Assembly: GCA_963845565.1 (NCBI GenBank)
Contig: CAWJSJ010000004.1
Span: forward strand, 96,001 to 160,000
Direction: 5' to 3'
Source: an uncultured Methylomirabilota bacterium
GTDB taxonomy: Bacteria; Methylomirabilota; Methylomirabilia; Methylomirabilales; 2-02-FULL-66-22
DNA: 64,000 nt
Position numbers: made by a program. Below, in pieces: positions 43,901-52,900 of this stretch (positions within the stretch are counted from its first letter, which is position 1; the number at the start of each line of letters is the position of its first letter).

Positions 43901-46900
43901 ACACCAAGATGAACTCGCTGCGCAAGACGGTGCGGAGGCTCTCGGGGCAGGAGCCGCGATCGGAGGCCGGGAGTCCGCAACCCAGCGGCCAATACGAGAC
44001 GGACAACGACAACCTTCAGGCGCAGGTCAAGGCGCTGGAAGAAGAGATGTTCCACCTGCGTCGGCGGCTGGAGCAGACGCCGCGGGAGTTCGAGTTCCTG
44101 CGCAACAAGCTGAGCCAGTCGCGGGAGCAGTTGGACCACGCGCAGGCGCAGAACGAGCGGCTGGCGGGTGTGCTCGGCCAAGCAAAGGATCAGATCGCGG
44201 CGCTCCGCGCCGAGGTGGATAAGCTGGCGGCTCCGCCGTCCAGTTACGGGACGATCCTCCAGGTCCATCCGGACGACACGGTGGACGTGTGGACCGGCGG
44301 GCGGAAGCTCAAGGTGAACGTCACTCCCAGCGTGGATCCGGCGGCGCTGCGCCGCGGCCGCGAGGTGGTGCTGAACGAGGCGCTGAACGTCGTGGATCTG
44401 AGCGGCGGCGACCCGCAGGGCGAGATCGTCCGCCTGAAGGACCGCCTGGACGAGACGCGCGCCATGGTGACGCTGCGTGCCGACGAGGAGCGGGTGGTCG
44501 AACTGGCGGCCGACCTCGCCGCCGCCTTGCAGCCGGGGGACCTGCTGCGCCTGGACGCCAAAGCGGGGGTGGTCCTGGAGAAGCTCCCCAAGGCGGAGGT
44601 CGAGGATCTCGTCTTGGAAGAGGTCCCCAACATCACCTACACCGATATCGGCGGGTTGGCGGCGCAGATCGACCAGATCCGCGACGCCATCGAGCTGCCG
44701 GTCCTGTACGCCGACCACTTTGCGGTGCACAAGCTCTCGCCCCCCAAGGGGGTGCTGCTGTACGGGCCGCCGGGGTGCGGCAAGACGCTCATCGCCAAAG
44801 CGGTGGCCAATGCCTTGGCGCAGCAGCTCAGCCGCCAGACCGGCACGCCCAGCCGGGCGTACTTCCTCAACGTGAAGGGGCCCGAACTGCTCAACAAGTA
44901 CGTGGGCGAAACAGAGCGGAAGCTCCGCGAGATCTTCGCCCGCGCTCGGGAGAAGGCCAGCGCCGGTGCCCCCGTGGTCATCTTCTTCGACGAGATGGAT
45001 TCCCTCTTCCGGACGCGCGGATCGGGCATCTCCTCGGACGTGGAATCCACCATCGTCCCGCAGTTCTTGGCGGAGCTGGACGGCGTGGAGGGGCTCCGGC
45101 ATGTGATCGTGATCGGCGCCAGCAACCGGCAGGACCTGATCGATCCGGCCGTCCTCCGGCCGGGCCGCTTCGACGTGAAGATCCGCATCGACCGCCCCAA
45201 CCGGGAGGCGGCGCGCGAGATCTTCGCCAAGTACCTGACGACCGATCTGCCGTGGGCCGCCCCGGCGTTGGCAGCCCACGGGGACGACCCGGCGGCCACG
45301 GCGGCCGCCCTGATCGAGGAGGCGCTGACGGAGATGTTTTCCGGCGACGACGCCCACCGTTTCCTGGAGGTCACCTATGCGTCCGGGGAGAAGGAGACGC
45401 TCTACTTCAAGGACTTCGTGAGTGGGGCGATGATCGAGAGCGTCTGCACGCGGGCCAAGAAGACGGCGGTCAAGCGCATGATCACCACCGGCGTCAAGGG
45501 GATCGGTGCGGCGGATCTGACGGACGCGGTCAAGGCGGAGTTCCGGGAGAACGAGGATCTTCCCAACACCACCAACCCCGACGACTGGGCCAAGATTGCC
45601 GGCCGCCGCGGGGAACGCATCGTGCATGTCCGGCCGGTGTTCGACCGCGAAGCGAAGAAGCCCCGCAAGGTCGAGAACATCAGCACGGGCCACTATCTCT
45701 GAGCCCCGACCCCGCGTTCCGAATCCCCCGAGAGGCGAACCGCCGCGTGGGGCGGCGGTGTGGGTGACCAGCCGTGCGGCGCTGCGGCGCCGTACCGAAA
45801 GGATAGCTGCATGGCGATCGAGAAGATCATGGGGAGCGAGACGGAGCTCGGCATCACTACCCACACCGCGTCCGGTTTCGATCCCGTGGGCGGCGCCATC
45901 TTTCTGATCAACGCCGTGCCCGAGGAGGCGTCCTCGCGGGCGTTGTGGGACTACACGGGAGAGAACCCACTCCTGGACGCGCGGGGCTACGAGGCGACCG
46001 GAGAACGCGAGCGGCCCACGGCCCAGGATAACCGTGCGCTCAACAAGGTGCTGGCGAACGGCGGGCGCCTCTACGTCGACGGCGCCCACCCCGAGTACTC
46101 GACCCCCGAGACCAGCAACGCCCGGGATCTCGTGCTGTTCGAAAAAGCCGGGGAGCGGCTGGCCGACGCCTGCCGCGAGGCGGCCAACCGAACGCTTCCG
46201 CCGCACCAGCAGTTGGTGCTGTACAAGAACAACAGCGACGGCAAAGGGAACAGCTACGGCTATCATGAGAACTACCTGGTGGCCCGGAGCGTGCCCTTCG
46301 AGCGGTTGGTGGAGGCGTTGACCCCGTTCTTGGTTTCCCGCATCGTCGTGGCGGGTGCGGGCAAGGTGGGGGCCGAGAACGGCGCCGAGCCCTGCGCCTA
46401 CCAGATCTCCCAGCGGGCCGATTTCTTCGAGACGCTGATCGGTTTGGATACCATGGCGAAGCGGCCGATCATCAACACCCGCGACGAGCCCCACGCCGAC
46501 GAGGAGCGGTACCGCCGCCTCCACGTCATCGTGGGCGACTCCAACCTGGCCGAGGTGAGCACCTACCTCAAGGTCGGGACCACGGCCCTGGTGCTGGCCA
46601 TGGTGGAGGACGGCGCCCTCCGGAAGGACCTCGCCCTGGAAGATCCGGTGCGGGCCATCAAGGAGATCTCCCACGACACCACCTGCACCCGGAAGGTCCG
46701 CCTGAAGCGGGGGACGGAGGTCTCGGCGGTCGAACTCCAGCGGGAGTACCTGGAGCTGGCGCAGGCCTACTACGCCACGGTCGAGCAGTCCCCCCAGGTC
46801 ACCGACCTCCTGGAGCGCTGGGACCGGGTCCTGACCCAGCTCGCCGAGGACCCCCGCCAGTGCGCCCGGGAGCTGGACTGGGTCATCAAGCAGGCGCTCC

Positions 46901-49900: not shown

Positions 49901-52900
49901 CCAGGTCACCGACCTCCTGGAGCGCTGGGACCGGGTCCTGACCCAGCTCGCCGAGGACCCCCGCCAGTGCGCCCGGGAGCTGGACTGGGTCATCAAGCAG
50001 GCGCTCCTCGAGGCGTACACCAGCCGGAAGGGGATCGGGTTCGACGATCAGCGCGTCAGCATGCTGGATCTGCAGTACCACGACGTGCGGCGCGATCGCG
50101 GGTTCTACTCCATGCTCTGCCGCGCGGGAAAGGTGGACCGGCTTTTCGACGATGCGACGATCGAGCGGGCCATGACGATCCCACCCCAGACCACGCGGGC
50201 CAAGGTCCGGTCGGACTTCATCAACTTTGCCACCGAACGGAACAAGTCCTACGATGTGGGCTGGTCGTATCTGAAGCTGAACGATCGGTACCAGCGGACC
50301 ATCCTCTGCAAGGATCCGTTCAAGCCGTTCGATCCGCGCGTGGAAGAGTTGATCAACTCGGCTTGAGGGGTTACAGTAGAGAGGTAGTTGGGGGAAAGGT
50401 GCGGGGTCACCCGGGACCCGGCGGTTTCGGGTACATGGCGTCGGATGCCTTGAGTGCACGGCTCACGAAAGGAGAGGGACCACCATGTTGTCCAAGACCA
50501 TGCAGGACGCGGTGAACGAGCAGATTCAGAAGGAGTACTATTCGTCGTACCTGTATCTGGCCATGTCCGCCTACTGCGAGGCGAACAATCTCCCGGGCTC
50601 CGCCAGGTGGATGCGGCTGCAGAGCCAGGAAGAGCTGTCTCACGCGATGAAGCTGTATGACCACGTGTGCGATCGGGGTGGGCGGGTGACCCTGCAGGCC
50701 CTCCAGCAGCCGCCGGCCGAGTACAAGTCGGCCCTGGACATCTTTCAGAAGGTCCTGGAGCATGAGCAACACGTGACCGCCTCCATCCACAAACTGTACG
50801 CCTTGGCCGTCAAGGAGAACGATTATCCCGGACAGATCGCGCTTCAGTGGTTCGTCACGGAGCAGGTGGAGGAAGAGAAGAACGCCGGCTTGATCGTGGA
50901 GCAGCTGAAGGCGGTCGGCGAGAGCAAGACCTCGCTGATGCTACTGGACCGGGCTCTCGGCAAACGGGGTCAGTAGGACGACACCTCCGGCGCCCATTTC
51001 GCGGCGGCGGACACACGACCAGGCGGGGCGGCGTGGATGACACGCCGCCCCGCGGCTATTTGGCGGTCCGGCGTCGCCAAGCGTGCCACCGGGCGGCCTC
51101 CGGCCCTATGGTGTCCGGACGCCGCCGTAGACGGGCCCGCCGTTGTCCACATACTGCCGGAGGACGGCGGCGGCCTCGCCGCGGCGCACGTCCCGGGTCA
51201 CGCCAATGCCCCTCCGTTCCAGCAGTCCGGGCCAGTTGACGGGCTTGTCCCCTTCATCGAATCCCACCGCGCGGGCATCCTCGTCCCGCGCGCCGCAGGC
51301 CAGCCGCCGGATTCCCGACCACGGAAGAGATCCGAGACACATCGCACACGGCTCGGTGCTCGTCACGAGTTCAAAAGGGGGAAGACCGGCCGCGCCGAGA
51401 TCGTGGGTGCCCATCAATCGTTGCGCGATGGCGATGGCCACCATCTCGGCGTGGGCGACGGCACACCCCAGGGGGACGACCAGATTGACGCCGGGCGCCA
51501 CCAGGGTGTGACGCCGCGAGTCGAATACCGCCGCCGCGAACGGGCCCCCTGTTCCCCGGCGCACGTTCTGGCGGGACAATTCGATCACGACCTGCATTCG
51601 GTCGTCGATCGCCGGATAGCTCTGGGTCGGATCCGGGACCACCTCGTCAACCCAGTCGGGCAGCCGAAGTGTCACCTCGGGATACCGCATTTCCACCACC
51701 CTCCTTGCGGTTTCGCATGCACCGTCCATGCTCCGTGCGGTCACGCGCGAAACCGGCCCGCCATGGAGACGAGCAGCTCGTTCTTCATCGTGTTGAGCAA
51801 GAGCGCCACCCCCTAGCCCGCATTTTTCGCGAACACAGCTCGCGAAGAATGCGGACTTAATAGGAACCCCTGGGGGCGGCGGTCCGGAACGGATCAGGCG
51901 TCGCCGGTGCACGATGACACCGCACCCATCCTGGCGGATCGGGTACCCGTCCGTCAGGATGGGTGCCCGATCCGCCCGCCGCCACGTCTCCTCCCGCTGC
52001 AGGCGGGAATGGCTACGCGTCAGGTCAGCCCGGATTCTTCGCGAATCCTTCGTGAATAATCCGGGCGAGCGGAGGCCGCCGGTCCGCACGGATGCGCCGA
52101 GTGTCCGACAGTGTGATCCCCTCCCAGGGTCCGACCGAAGTATCGCGTACGCCTGGCGGGGGCTCAAGGGGAGAAGGGTGCTGCGGCGGATGTCGCGCGG
52201 TTCTCCTGACAACTCGGGGGGCGGAGATGGGGGAGCGGAGAGCCGAGAGCGTAGGCTGGAGACCGGAGGGTCGAGCCGCGAAAACCGAGCGCCGAGAACC
52301 GCGGGCAGACTTCCGAATGCTGAACGCTGATAACTGAACGCCGAAAGCTAGAAAGGCGGCTTCGAGTCGGGGGCTGAGATCCGTGGAGGAGCGTCGTCGG
52401 GGAGTGTGGGGTGGAAATGGTGATGGAGTTGGATGGCGATCTGGGCGAGCGCCTTGAAGAGACCGTCGCAGTATCGCTCGTCGTCGAAGTGGCGCTGGAG
52501 CTCGGAGTTCACCTGGGTCCAGAACGCCTGCGGTGCCACCCGCCGGATCTCCTCGCCCCCGACGACGGCGAACCGGCGCGTGGCCGTGTTGGCATACACC
52601 AGAACCGCCCGCGGCCGCGCCGCCGCCGGCATATCCCAGGTTTCGAAGAGAGAAACGGCGCGGGCCTCGGGTTCCCCCGAGGCCCGCGCGTCGATGATCA
52701 AGCCGATCGGTTCCCCGGCATGGCGGCAGGCATGGGCCAAGCCGTCCTGGAGTTGCGCCCGCTCGGCGTCCGTCAGGAACGGGCGTCGGAAGGCACGCAG
52801 GAACTCCATGTCGACCCTACGCCCGCGCGGGAAGCACCGCCGTGATGGCGCCGCGGGTCGCCTCGACCAGCCGGTCCACCTGGGCGGCGGTGATCACCAG

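What a model noticed while it worked through the whole genome (the two positions that open the first line are those of the whole stretch)
45811..50366. Dop and PafA of the Pup-proteasome locus share a 509-bp stretch of 100% identity: recurrent gene conversion between liga [...]
The depupylase gene dop (g03995) and the Pup ligase gene pafA (g03998), 1.7 kb apart in the Pup-proteasome operon, are about 40% identical as proteins at both ends but carry a central stretch of 509 bp (170 residues) that is identical base for base. I read this as ongoing gene conversion that keeps the core of the two antagonistic enzymes the same in this genus, so that ligase versus depupylase activity must be set by the unconverted N- and C-terminal parts (Dop loop, C-terminal domain). 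Concerted evolution of Dop and PafA has not been described and gives natural chimeras that map which parts decide the direction of the reaction.
Evidence so far: Call 126: self-megablast, C4:142468-142976 = C4:145575-146083, 100% over 509 bp. Call 127: protein alignment, identical block of 170 residues flanked by diverged sequence; both genes pass their NCBIfam equivalog models (Dop TIGR03688 570 bits, cut 492; PafA TIGR03686 575 bits, cut 551). Calls 128-129, 131: dop against pafA inside the same genome by blastn: 92% over 637 bp in G000, 94.6% over 597 bp in G020, 86% over 834 bp in G017, 85% over 863 bp in G019, 83% over 655 bp in G016 (all same genus), against 67-69% over 782-1,035 bp in three genomes of two other families of the class (G182, G131, G242; calls 130-131). 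The G000 tract is as close to the relatives' dop as to their pafA (G017 85.5% [...]
(Added by a program. Inside this text positions count along the whole contig: contig position 96,001 is position 1 of the stretch shown here. "Call 12" and the like, gene names such as g00115 and contig names such as C1 are that model's own, and its searches are not shown. The text may have been shortened before it was handed on; [...] marks where a part breaks off. The agent that wrote the report below was given it as the finding of a first reader that could run no searches.)

Follow-up and report, generated by a model that had tools for sequence, protein, structure and literature searches.

The report
Shared identical module in dop and pafA
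The gene for the enzyme that attaches the bacterial degradation tag Pup and the gene for the enzyme that removes it carry a 509-base middle section that repeated copying between them keeps identical, and the copied block stops where the parts known to set the direction of the reaction begin.

Summary
Confirmed. Window 46468-46976 (dop) equals 49575-50083 (pafA) base for base over 509 bp, while the flanks are anciently diverged. It is not a polishing artefact: in one public run the tract forms its own k-mer contig at about twice the depth of the flank contigs, and flank contigs of two further studies stop at the same edges.

It is at least 98% identical in 13 of 20 genomes of the order where both whole copies could be compared, across three families and including two single-contig genomes. 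Between those genomes the tract differs by 14-31%. Of 267 variable tract columns, 252 vary identically in dop and pafA, against 1 of 281 and 0 of 205 in the flanks. This is long-lasting recurrent gene conversion, with a GC3 excess in the tract.

The 5' edge lies three residues after the alpha-loop. All published Dop-to-ligase determinants lie outside the tract. I found no paper describing this. The scan had found the same thing before on another genome (e1-2194075). Enzyme activities are untested.

The parts
43186..43383 (+). pup (65 aa, ends Gly-Gly-Glu), upstream of mpa rather than between dop and prcB
   Evidence: TIGR03687, 60.6 bits, above the cut-off of 41.45; translation; no Pup-like frame between dop and prcB.
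43867..45702 (+). mpa/arc proteasome ATPase
   Evidence: TIGR03689, 725 bits (cut-off 504.75).
45811..47295 (+). dop (depupylase). The open frame starts at GTG 45760. ATG 45811 is the likely start.
   Evidence: TIGR03688, 570.1 bits (cut-off 492.3). GxExE motif, Dop-loop motif, and catalytic Asp context without the PafA insertion.
45934..46035 (+). Dop-loop coding stretch (approximate), absent from pafA and outside the tract
   Evidence: alignment to Acidothermus Dop, with gaps in PafA. The borders are placed by my own count from the Msm Ala43-Val79 range.
46423..46461 (+). Dop-type alpha-loop (13 codons, equal to Acidothermus F208-K220). It ends two codons before the tract.
   Evidence: alignment; for the published definition.
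46468..46976 (+). Converted tract, dop copy (509 bp; beta7 and peripheral helices)
47366..48241 (+). prcB, proteasome beta subunit with propeptide
   Evidence: TIGR03690, 319.9 bits.
48297..48986 (+). prcA, proteasome alpha subunit
   Evidence: TIGR03691, 308.2 bits.
48999..50366 (+). pafA (Pup ligase)
   Evidence: TIGR03686, 575.3 bits (cut-off 551.3); no Dop-loop, and a one-residue insertion plus Gly after the catalytic Asp.
49530..49568 (+). PafA-type counterpart of the alpha-loop, unalignable with dop at DNA level. It ends two codons before the tract.
   Evidence: alignment; (almost every base mismatched just 5' of the tract).
49575..50083 (+). Converted tract, pafA copy (509 bp, identical to 46468-46976)

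Best explanation
The middle third of dop and pafA is homogenised by recurrent non-reciprocal homologous recombination (gene conversion) between the two genes on the same chromosome. This began no later than the common ancestor of the families that share it. The named relatives are Methylomirabilota MAGs. It is still going on in most lineages: a mutation arising in one copy is either erased or copied into the other. The block is bracketed by two motifs that are nearly invariant in both enzymes everywhere (IINTRDEPHAD... at the 5' edge, ...LDLQYHD at the 3' edge). These motifs give permanent homology on which exchange can start and end. Beyond them the genes are too diverged for heteroduplex to extend. 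A conversion that ran into the alpha-loop or towards the C-terminal domain would swap direction-determining parts and be removed by selection. Because the shared block holds only strand beta7 and the peripheral helices, both enzymes can carry the same sequence there. Ligase versus hydrolase identity lies in the N-terminal part (about 236 residues in Dop, 192 in PafA) and the C-terminal part (about 105 in Dop, 93 in PafA). Shown here: the identity, its read-level reality, the co-variation, the conserved borders, the GC3 excess, and purifying selection on the flanks. Inferred: the recombination machinery, the role of selection at the borders, and that the two proteins have opposite activities.
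For: (1) The tract is 509 bp exact in G000 and dS between the copies is 0.008, against 0.98 and 0.71 in the flanks.
(2) Read-level support: the tract is its own k-mer contig at about double depth in X1, and flank contigs stop at the tract edges in runs of three studies.
(3) In 20 genomes of the order with both whole copies, 13 are at 98% or more. These are G000, G005, G012, G014, G015, G016, G020 (family f1); G023, G031, G034 (f4); G026, G039, G043 (f7). G014 and G043 are single-contig genomes. G009 is 96.5% and G096 is 91.0%. G002, G008, G022, G025 and G029 are 74-84%. G017 is partial: 116 bp at 99.1%.
(4) Between genomes the same tract is only 69-86% identical.
(5) Of 267 tract columns that vary among 11 converting genomes, 252 vary identically in dop and pafA. 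The flanks give 1 of 281 and 0 of 205.
(6) Trees: the flanks split dop from pafA with support 1.0. In the tract, 14 of 16 genomes have dop and pafA as sisters.
(7) The 5' border is at the same alignment base in all 11 converting genomes and the 3' border falls within 13 bases.
(8) GC3 of the tract exceeds the flanks by a mean of 8.8 points (range 3.0-18.7, 11 of 11 positive) in converting genomes. In the five non-converting genomes the mean is 0.6 (range -0.5 to 1.7).
(9) In one search, 17 of the 18 matches that begin at a contig's first bases are cut inside Dop residues 237-406, in 12 short-read MAGs. Assemblers break in this way at a repeat.
(10) In 17 genomes without conversion, the identity between paralogues peaks at the two tract edges (84-88% and 88%, against 55-66% mid-tract).
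(11) Flank dN/dS is 0.01-0.39 in both genes.
Against: No molecule spanning both copies was seen, because only contigs were available and no raw or long reads. Short-read assemblers can pop bubbles, so '100%' in fragmented MAGs may overstate a true 97-99%. The two single-contig genomes and G026 (9 differences kept) argue that this is minor. The genomes are related, so the counts are not independent. Seven of the 20 genomes fall below 98%, five of them at 74-84%, so the process is not universal. G009, the closest relative of G000, shows 17 mismatches between its copies, though its dop also carries frame breaks that suggest a noisy assembly. The 3' border is not next to any published determinant; the nearest is about 49 residues downstream. 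Selection at that edge is therefore an inference. A lower dS in the tract between species could also reflect codon constraint.
Confidence: 0.9

Rival explanations
1. Assembly or polishing artefact. The two copies differ in the cell, and reads of one copy were used to correct the other, or a repeat was collapsed and then duplicated.
For: G000 is a 6-contig assembly of unknown method. Multi-mapping reads can homogenise paralogues during polishing. Short-read MAGs may pop bubbles.
Against:: in k-mer contigs built without the assembly, the tract is one unbranched 502-nt contig at depth 16.3 between flanks at 6.88 and 9.55. The same block occurs in 12 other assemblies, including two single-contig genomes. 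Co-variation holds at 252 of 267 columns between genomes. G026 keeps 9 differences and G096 keeps 46, so differences are not routinely erased.
Confidence: 0.02
2. Selection, not recombination. Identical protein or nucleotide constraints keep the two tracts the same.
For: The tract starts and ends in motifs conserved in both enzymes.
Against: Synonymous sites are identical within genomes (dS 0.008) but diverged between them (dS 0.25-0.76). In 17 genomes of other families of the class and in the loci of other phyla, the same region is 63-78% identical between paralogues. Actinomycetota proteins are only 45-50% identical there.
Confidence: 0.01
3. Same mechanism, different cause. The homogenisation is favoured by selection because it keeps a shared module of the ligase and the depupylase locked together, for example the surface that meets Pup, ATP-driven motions or a common partner. 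It is then not a neutral by-product of homology.
For: It persists across three families with fixed borders. Published long-lasting concerted evolution in prokaryotes is enriched for genes of one complex or pathway (PMC6053082, abstract and passages).
Against: Five of 20 genomes have let the tracts drift to 74-84% with both genes still intact and under purifying selection. Actinomycetota and Nitrospirota manage without it. I could not place the Pup groove in the tract: the passages I read put the Pup tail site near beta6 and the S126 loop, which lie in the N flank.
Confidence: 0.2

Closest known systems
Long-lasting recurrent concerted evolution of prokaryotic paralogues by gene conversion (Wang and Chen 2018, PMC6053082; abstract and passages read)
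   Same: Paralogues within a genome are more alike than orthologues between genomes. Synonymous sites are homogenised. The events recur in many lineages and the genes belong to one pathway.
   Different: In that study the 26 genes are mostly subunits of stable complexes (22 of 26; passages read). Here only an internal 510-bp module is shared, and by two enzymes that catalyse opposite reactions. The main text of that paper does not contain pafA, Pup or proteasome (0 occurrences each). Its supplements and database were not seen.
Laboratory conversion of Dop into a Pup ligase (Hecht et al. 2020, PMC7947786; sections 6 and 9, Table 1 and supplementary file 4 read)
   Same: The same map of determinants applies. 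The alpha-loop, the Dop-loop, the residues around the catalytic Asp, positions 27/31/85 and Ser450 all lie outside the natural shared block.
   Different: That study used mutagenesis of a mycobacterial enzyme. This is a natural experiment repeated in many species. It adds that the 10 'uniquely conserved' positions no. 34-43 can be the same in both enzymes. That paper mentions NC10 only as carrying sporadic homologues, and says nothing on recombination (0 occurrences).
Canonical actinobacterial Pup-proteasome locus (review PMC3511204, passages read)
   Same: mpa, dop, prcB, prcA, pafA and pup are all present, and each passes its NCBIfam equivalog cut-off.
   Different: Here pup lies upstream of mpa and ends in GGE. 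pafA follows prcA directly. The dop and pafA proteins are 100% identical over 170 residues, against 45-50% in four Actinomycetota MAGs.
tufA/tufB gene conversion in enterobacteria (recalled; no call)
   Same: RecA-type conversion keeps two distant copies nearly identical.
   Different: The tuf copies have the same function and are converted over their whole length.

Membership tests
Depupylase/deamidase Dop (TIGR03688) | Whole-protein score above the curated equivalog cut-off, and higher than against the PafA model | tested here: met
   570.1 bits (cut-off 492.3), against 416.2 bits on TIGR03686.
Depupylase/deamidase Dop (TIGR03688) | Dop-loop before strand beta2, with its conserved Trp and ENPL..DARG stretch | tested here: met
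   alignment; definition from PMC8599861 passages.
Depupylase/deamidase Dop (TIGR03688) | Dop-type alpha-loop (Acidothermus F208-K220) | tested here: met
   F.E..GL(D/E)T..K pattern as in the Actinomycetota and Nitrospira Dop rows. Published positions.
Depupylase/deamidase Dop (TIGR03688) | Depupylase activity | not testable with these tools
   No assay. Flank dN/dS of 0.05-0.39 shows only that the gene is maintained.
Pup ligase PafA (TIGR03686) | Whole-protein score above the curated equivalog cut-off | tested here: met
   575.3 bits (cut-off 551.3), a narrow margin, against 417.1 bits on the Dop model.
Pup ligase PafA (TIGR03686) | No Dop-loop; one extra residue and Gly after the catalytic Asp | tested here: met
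   LYQDTGCHPEY, against LYVD-GAHPEY in Dop. Published positions 9-12.
Pup ligase PafA (TIGR03686) | PafA-type helix in place of the alpha-loop (His, Trp, Glu, Gly, Ser, Ser, Ala, Arg, Ser at positions 25-33) | tested here: inconclusive
   His, one Ser, Ala and the last Ser are kept. Trp is Tyr, Glu is Gln, Gly is Glu, one Ser is Gly, and Arg is Ser. The stretch is clearly not Dop-type, but it is diverged from the actinobacterial consensus.
Pup ligase PafA (TIGR03686) | Ligase activity | not testable with these tools
   No assay.
Concerted evolution by recurrent gene conversion | Paralogues within a genome are more alike than orthologues between genomes, in a delimited tract, with the flanks showing the old duplication | tested here: met
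Concerted evolution by recurrent gene conversion | Homogenised synonymous sites, which rules out protein-level convergence | tested here: met
   dS 0.008 within G000, against 0.25-0.76 between genomes in the tract.
Concerted evolution by recurrent gene conversion | Recurrence in separate lineages | tested here: met
   252 co-varying columns and 14 of 16 same-genome sister pairs; three families.
Concerted evolution by recurrent gene conversion | Direct sight of recombination products or intermediates | not testable with these tools
   Only k-mer contigs were on offer.
GC-biased gene conversion | GC3 is raised in the converted tract relative to the flanks, and only where conversion is active | tested here: met
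   +8.8 (11 of 11 positive) against +0.6 in five non-converting genomes. The genomes are related, so this is a signature, not a test.

The most novel reading that the evidence does not exclude
The Pup ligase and the depupylase of this order are built as a shared scaffold cassette (beta7 plus the helical back) with two exchangeable caps that alone set the direction of the reaction. Conversion is retained by selection because it forces the scaffold of both enzymes to evolve as one unit. If so, swapping only the N- and C-terminal caps between the natural proteins should flip ligase to hydrolase and back. That includes the PafA-to-Dop direction, which reciprocal mutagenesis failed to achieve (PMC7947786 passages).
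Probability: 0.2. Interest if true: 0.85.

Novelty: new member of a known kind. Interest (0 to 1): 0.7.

Why it matters
Dop and PafA are a textbook case of how a hydrolase and a ligase arise from one fold. The determinants have so far been mapped by mutagenesis of one mycobacterial enzyme. Here nature has repeated the experiment in many species. A third of each protein is literally the same sequence, so none of it can encode the difference. That third includes 10 positions previously listed as differently conserved in the two enzymes. The border sits three residues after the alpha-loop that experiments singled out. This gives ready-made chimeras for biochemistry.

It also adds a clean bacterial example of long-lasting partial concerted evolution between functionally opposed paralogues, with a local GC3 rise that looks like GC-biased conversion. 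There is a practical side as well. The repeat breaks short-read assemblies inside these genes, and whole-gene trees of Dop and PafA that include these lineages will be misled.

Tried and rejected
(1) I looked for pup between dop and prcB, as in Actinobacteria, and found none in three frames. It lies upstream of mpa.

(2) Donor direction. The tract alone scores 209.3 bits on the Dop model and 199.0 on the PafA model. The protein tree of the tract (midpoint rooted, 170 columns) does not place it cleanly. Of the 10 diagnostic positions, by my reading 3 are PafA-like, 3 Dop-like and 4 ambiguous or neither. I make no claim on direction and read the tract as a mosaic.

(3) Read laying. X2 did not cover the flanks. 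Uncovered bins were not interpreted. The loose ends at 46458 and 46461 carry letters that translate to actinobacterial-type alpha-loop sequences, so they come from other organisms sharing the conserved motif. The joints 46181>47033 (X6, side 21) and 47400>46246 (X1, the contig running on into pafA) were not used as evidence of rearrangement.

(4) The 86% repeat in locus L045 is not dop or pafA.

(5) I tried to place the Pup-binding groove in the tract. The passages read give no residue list for the helix contacts, so I left this open.

(6) I ran no structure or complex prediction, because nothing in the verdict hangs on one.

(7) Literature. Searches found no paper on dop/pafA conversion. The library lacks most subscription journals, and the bioRxiv supplements and the LRCE database were not seen.

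(8) One search's tally (102 of 121 genomes matched) includes three unpublished genomes (G057, G080, G121).

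
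Full report
**Observation**

A script comparing the window with itself at offset 3107 shows that 46468-46976 and 49575-50083 are identical over exactly 509 bp. The run cannot be extended by a base on either side. At the same offset the 5' side matches at chance level (27-42 per 100 positions). The 100 bases after the tract match at 64 per 100. The repeat finder reports the same pair.

The two ORFs are Dop (TIGR03688, 570.1 bits, cut-off 492.3) and PafA (TIGR03686, 575.3 bits, cut-off 551.3). They sit in a locus pup-mpa-dop-prcB-prcA-pafA. The tract is in frame in both genes. It covers Dop residues 237-406 counted from the GTG at 45760 (220-389 from the ATG at 45811), and PafA residues 193-362. 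The genome has just these two copies.

**Is it an artefact?**

I laid the k-mer contigs of four public runs from four studies on 45900-47400.

- In X1 the tract is a contig of its own: 502 nt, covering 46472-46973, at depth 16.3.
- Its neighbours are a 599-nt contig ending at 46487 (depth 6.88) and a 2463-nt contig starting at 46944 (depth 9.55).
- Branch points at both edges, no branch inside, and a depth equal to the sum of the flanks are what an exact two-copy repeat gives in a de Bruijn graph.
- In X3 and X6 the flank contigs end at 46479 and 46488, and one in X6 starts at 46947.

X1 may be the sample the genome was assembled from. The test is therefore independent of the assembler and polisher, not of the sample. 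No raw or long reads were on offer.

**Relatives**

A protein search of 41 genomes (G000 and 40 relatives) found matches in 35. I fetched 18 loci, built a codon alignment of 16 genomes with both ORFs intact, and compared dop with pafA inside each genome.

- Eleven genomes have a block of about 510 bp at 98.0-100%, in the same place. They are G000, G005, G012, G014, G015 and G016 (the window's genus), G023, G031 and G034 (family f4), and G026 and G039 (family f7).
- G020, whose dop has a frame break, is 99.6%. G009 is 96.5%. G017 is partial, with 116 bp at 99.1%.
- A second sample added G043, a single-contig 2.75-Mb genome of f7, with 510 bp at 100%, and G096 (f4) at 91.0%.
- In total, 13 of 20 genomes with both whole copies are at 98% or more, 2 are at 91-96.5%, and 5 are at 74-84% (G002, G008, G022, G025, G029).

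Outside the order:

- Eighteen genomes of three other families of the class give 66-79%.
- In the 79 loci from other phyla, dop and pafA match each other at 63-78% wherever both lie in the locus.

The named relatives nearest to the window are Methylomirabilota MAGs, not Actinobacteria.

An independent sign comes from broken assemblies. In one search, 18 matches begin within five bases of a contig's start. By my reading of that table, 17 of them are cut inside Dop residues 237-406, in 12 short-read MAGs. The tract is a third of the protein.

**Concerted evolution**

- Between genomes the tract is only 83-86% identical within the genus and 69-78% across families, much like the flanks. Within a genome it is about 100%.
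- Among the 11 converting genomes, 267 of 512 tract columns vary, and 252 of these show the same pattern in dop and pafA. In the flanks the counts are 1 of 281 and 0 of 205.
- Nucleotide trees of the flanks split all dop from all pafA with support 1.0. In the tract tree, 14 of 16 genomes have their own dop and pafA as sisters, the exceptions being G025 and G029.
- dS between the two copies in G000 is 0.008 in the tract, against 0.98 and 0.71 in the flanks. Between genomes, tract dS is 0.25-0.76.

Identity at synonymous sites that changes from species to species cannot come from selection on the protein. It requires repeated copying between the genes. Flank dN/dS is 0.01-0.39 for both genes, so both are maintained.

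**A recombination signature**

GC3 of the tract exceeds that of the flanks by a mean of 8.8 points in the 11 converting genomes. The range is 3.0-18.7 and all values are positive; for example G026 has 90 against 69-74. In the five genomes whose tracts have drifted apart the mean excess is 0.6, with a range of -0.5 to 1.7. This is the pattern expected of GC-biased gene conversion. The genomes are related, so I treat it as a signature and not a test.

**Borders**

- The 5' border falls on the same alignment base in all 11 converting genomes, and the 3' border within 13 bases.
- In 17 genomes without conversion, identity between the paralogues is highest exactly at the two ends of the tract. It is 84-88% over the first 90 bases and 88% at 46960-46989, against 55-66% mid-tract.
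- The block is therefore bracketed by two motifs that stay alike in both enzymes in every lineage. They can serve as standing homology for exchange.
- Just 5' of the tract almost every base differs, because the genes there encode the alpha-loop in Dop and its helical counterpart in PafA.

**What the borders mean**

Hecht et al. (PMC7947786; sections 6 and 9, Table 1 and supplementary file 4 read) list 48 positions conserved differently in Dop and PafA. They turned Dop into a ligase by replacing the alpha-loop together with the Dop-loop deletion or supporting mutations. All 20 mutated positions (nos. 3-7, 9-15, 25-33 and 46) and the Dop-loop lie outside the natural tract.

By the alignment to Acidothermus Dop, the tract equals residues 223-395 of that protein. 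The alpha-loop is F208-K220. The tract therefore begins three residues after it, at the strand that the loop precedes (beta7).

Positions 34-43 (10 of the 48) lie inside the tract. In this order they carry the same residue in both enzymes. By my reading 3 are PafA-like, 3 are Dop-like and 4 are ambiguous or neither. In agreement, the tract alone scores 209.3 bits on the Dop model and 199.0 on the PafA model, while each flank clearly prefers its own model.

In Corynebacterium PafA numbering the tract is about 203-380 by my count. This holds beta7 (216-222) and the peripheral helices. Strands beta1-4 and beta6 and the C-terminal domain (from about 408) lie outside (PMC12053664 passages). So the shared block is the last strand plus the scaffold behind the active site, not the catalytic core.

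The 3' border is not next to a listed determinant; the nearest, no. 44, is about 49 residues downstream. Selection at that edge is my inference.

**Mechanism and its limits**

The best reading is RecA-type conversion between direct repeats 3.1 kb apart (11 kb apart in G039). It is self-sustaining while the copies stay alike and is lost once they drift. G026 keeps 9 differences, all in the 3' half. G022 keeps only a 98-base exact run at the 5' edge. G002 and G008 are still same-genome sisters at about 80%.

Families f6 (74%) and f11 (79%), and the protein identities of 50-62% in the seven other non-actinobacterial loci (Nitrospirota, Rokubacteria and others) against 45-50% in the four Actinomycetota loci, hint at older conversion that has since stopped. 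I did not test this. Whether homogenisation is favoured by selection or merely tolerated is open. I give the adaptive version 0.2.

**Novelty**

Seven literature searches found no description of dop/pafA conversion (and the in-paper search). The survey of long-lasting concerted evolution in prokaryotes does not mention these genes in its main text.

The scan's own records hold an earlier report of the same phenomenon on another genome (e1-2194075). My analysis was done before I read it and agrees with it. It adds the read-level check, the GC3 signature, the position-by-position map, the broken-contig count and the limits of the distribution within the class.

The kind of process is known, so I class this as a new member of a known kind. 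Its unusual features are opposed functions, a partial block, and borders that match an experimental map.

Noticed in passing
window 43186-43383: pup lies upstream of mpa, not between dop and prcB as in Actinobacteria, and ends in Gly-Gly-Glu. Deamidation by Dop is therefore not needed before ligation.
   Followed up: partly
L008, L013, L016 (Nitrospirota); L005, L006; G025, G029 (f6); L100 (G139, f11): In the tract region, Dop-PafA protein identity is 50-62% in non-actinobacterial phyla and 68-70% in f6, against 45-50% in four Actinomycetota MAGs. The tract tree pairs dop with pafA within Nitrospirota and within L005/L006. This may reflect older conversion that has since stopped.
   Followed up: partly
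L095 (G020), L096 (G009): dop is interrupted by a frame break or stop in two assemblies of few contigs: a 1-base gap inside the tract in G020, and several breaks in G009. These could be long-read indel errors or real pseudogenes.
   Followed up: no
G002 and G008 dop, alignment position no. 35: The two same-genus genomes whose tracts have drifted apart carry Ala in Dop at a position where actinobacterial Dop conserves Ala. Their PafA and all converting genomes carry Ser. This may be a return to the Dop state once conversion stopped.
   Followed up: no
G026, G022, G002 tracts (codon alignment): Residual differences sit in the 3' part. All 9 in G026 lie beyond alignment base 989, and G022 keeps an exact 98-base run at the 5' edge only. 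This suggests that exchange starts at the 5' motif and runs for a variable length.
   Followed up: no
L089 (G039): dop and pafA are 11 kb apart here instead of 3.1 kb, yet the tract is 99.6% identical.
   Followed up: no
window about 46090, Dop residue after the catalytic Asp: Dop of this order and of Nitrospira has Gly where actinobacterial Dop has a conserved His (published position no. 11), which is the PafA state.
   Followed up: no
window 50485-50976: A non-heme ferritin-like gene follows pafA directly. Its score of 123 bits is below the equivalog cut-off of 178.
   Followed up: no
L023 7257-7354 / 7439-7536: An exact 98-base direct repeat at the end of a contig inside a Nitrospira-like dop locus. 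It is probably an assembly end effect.
   Followed up: no
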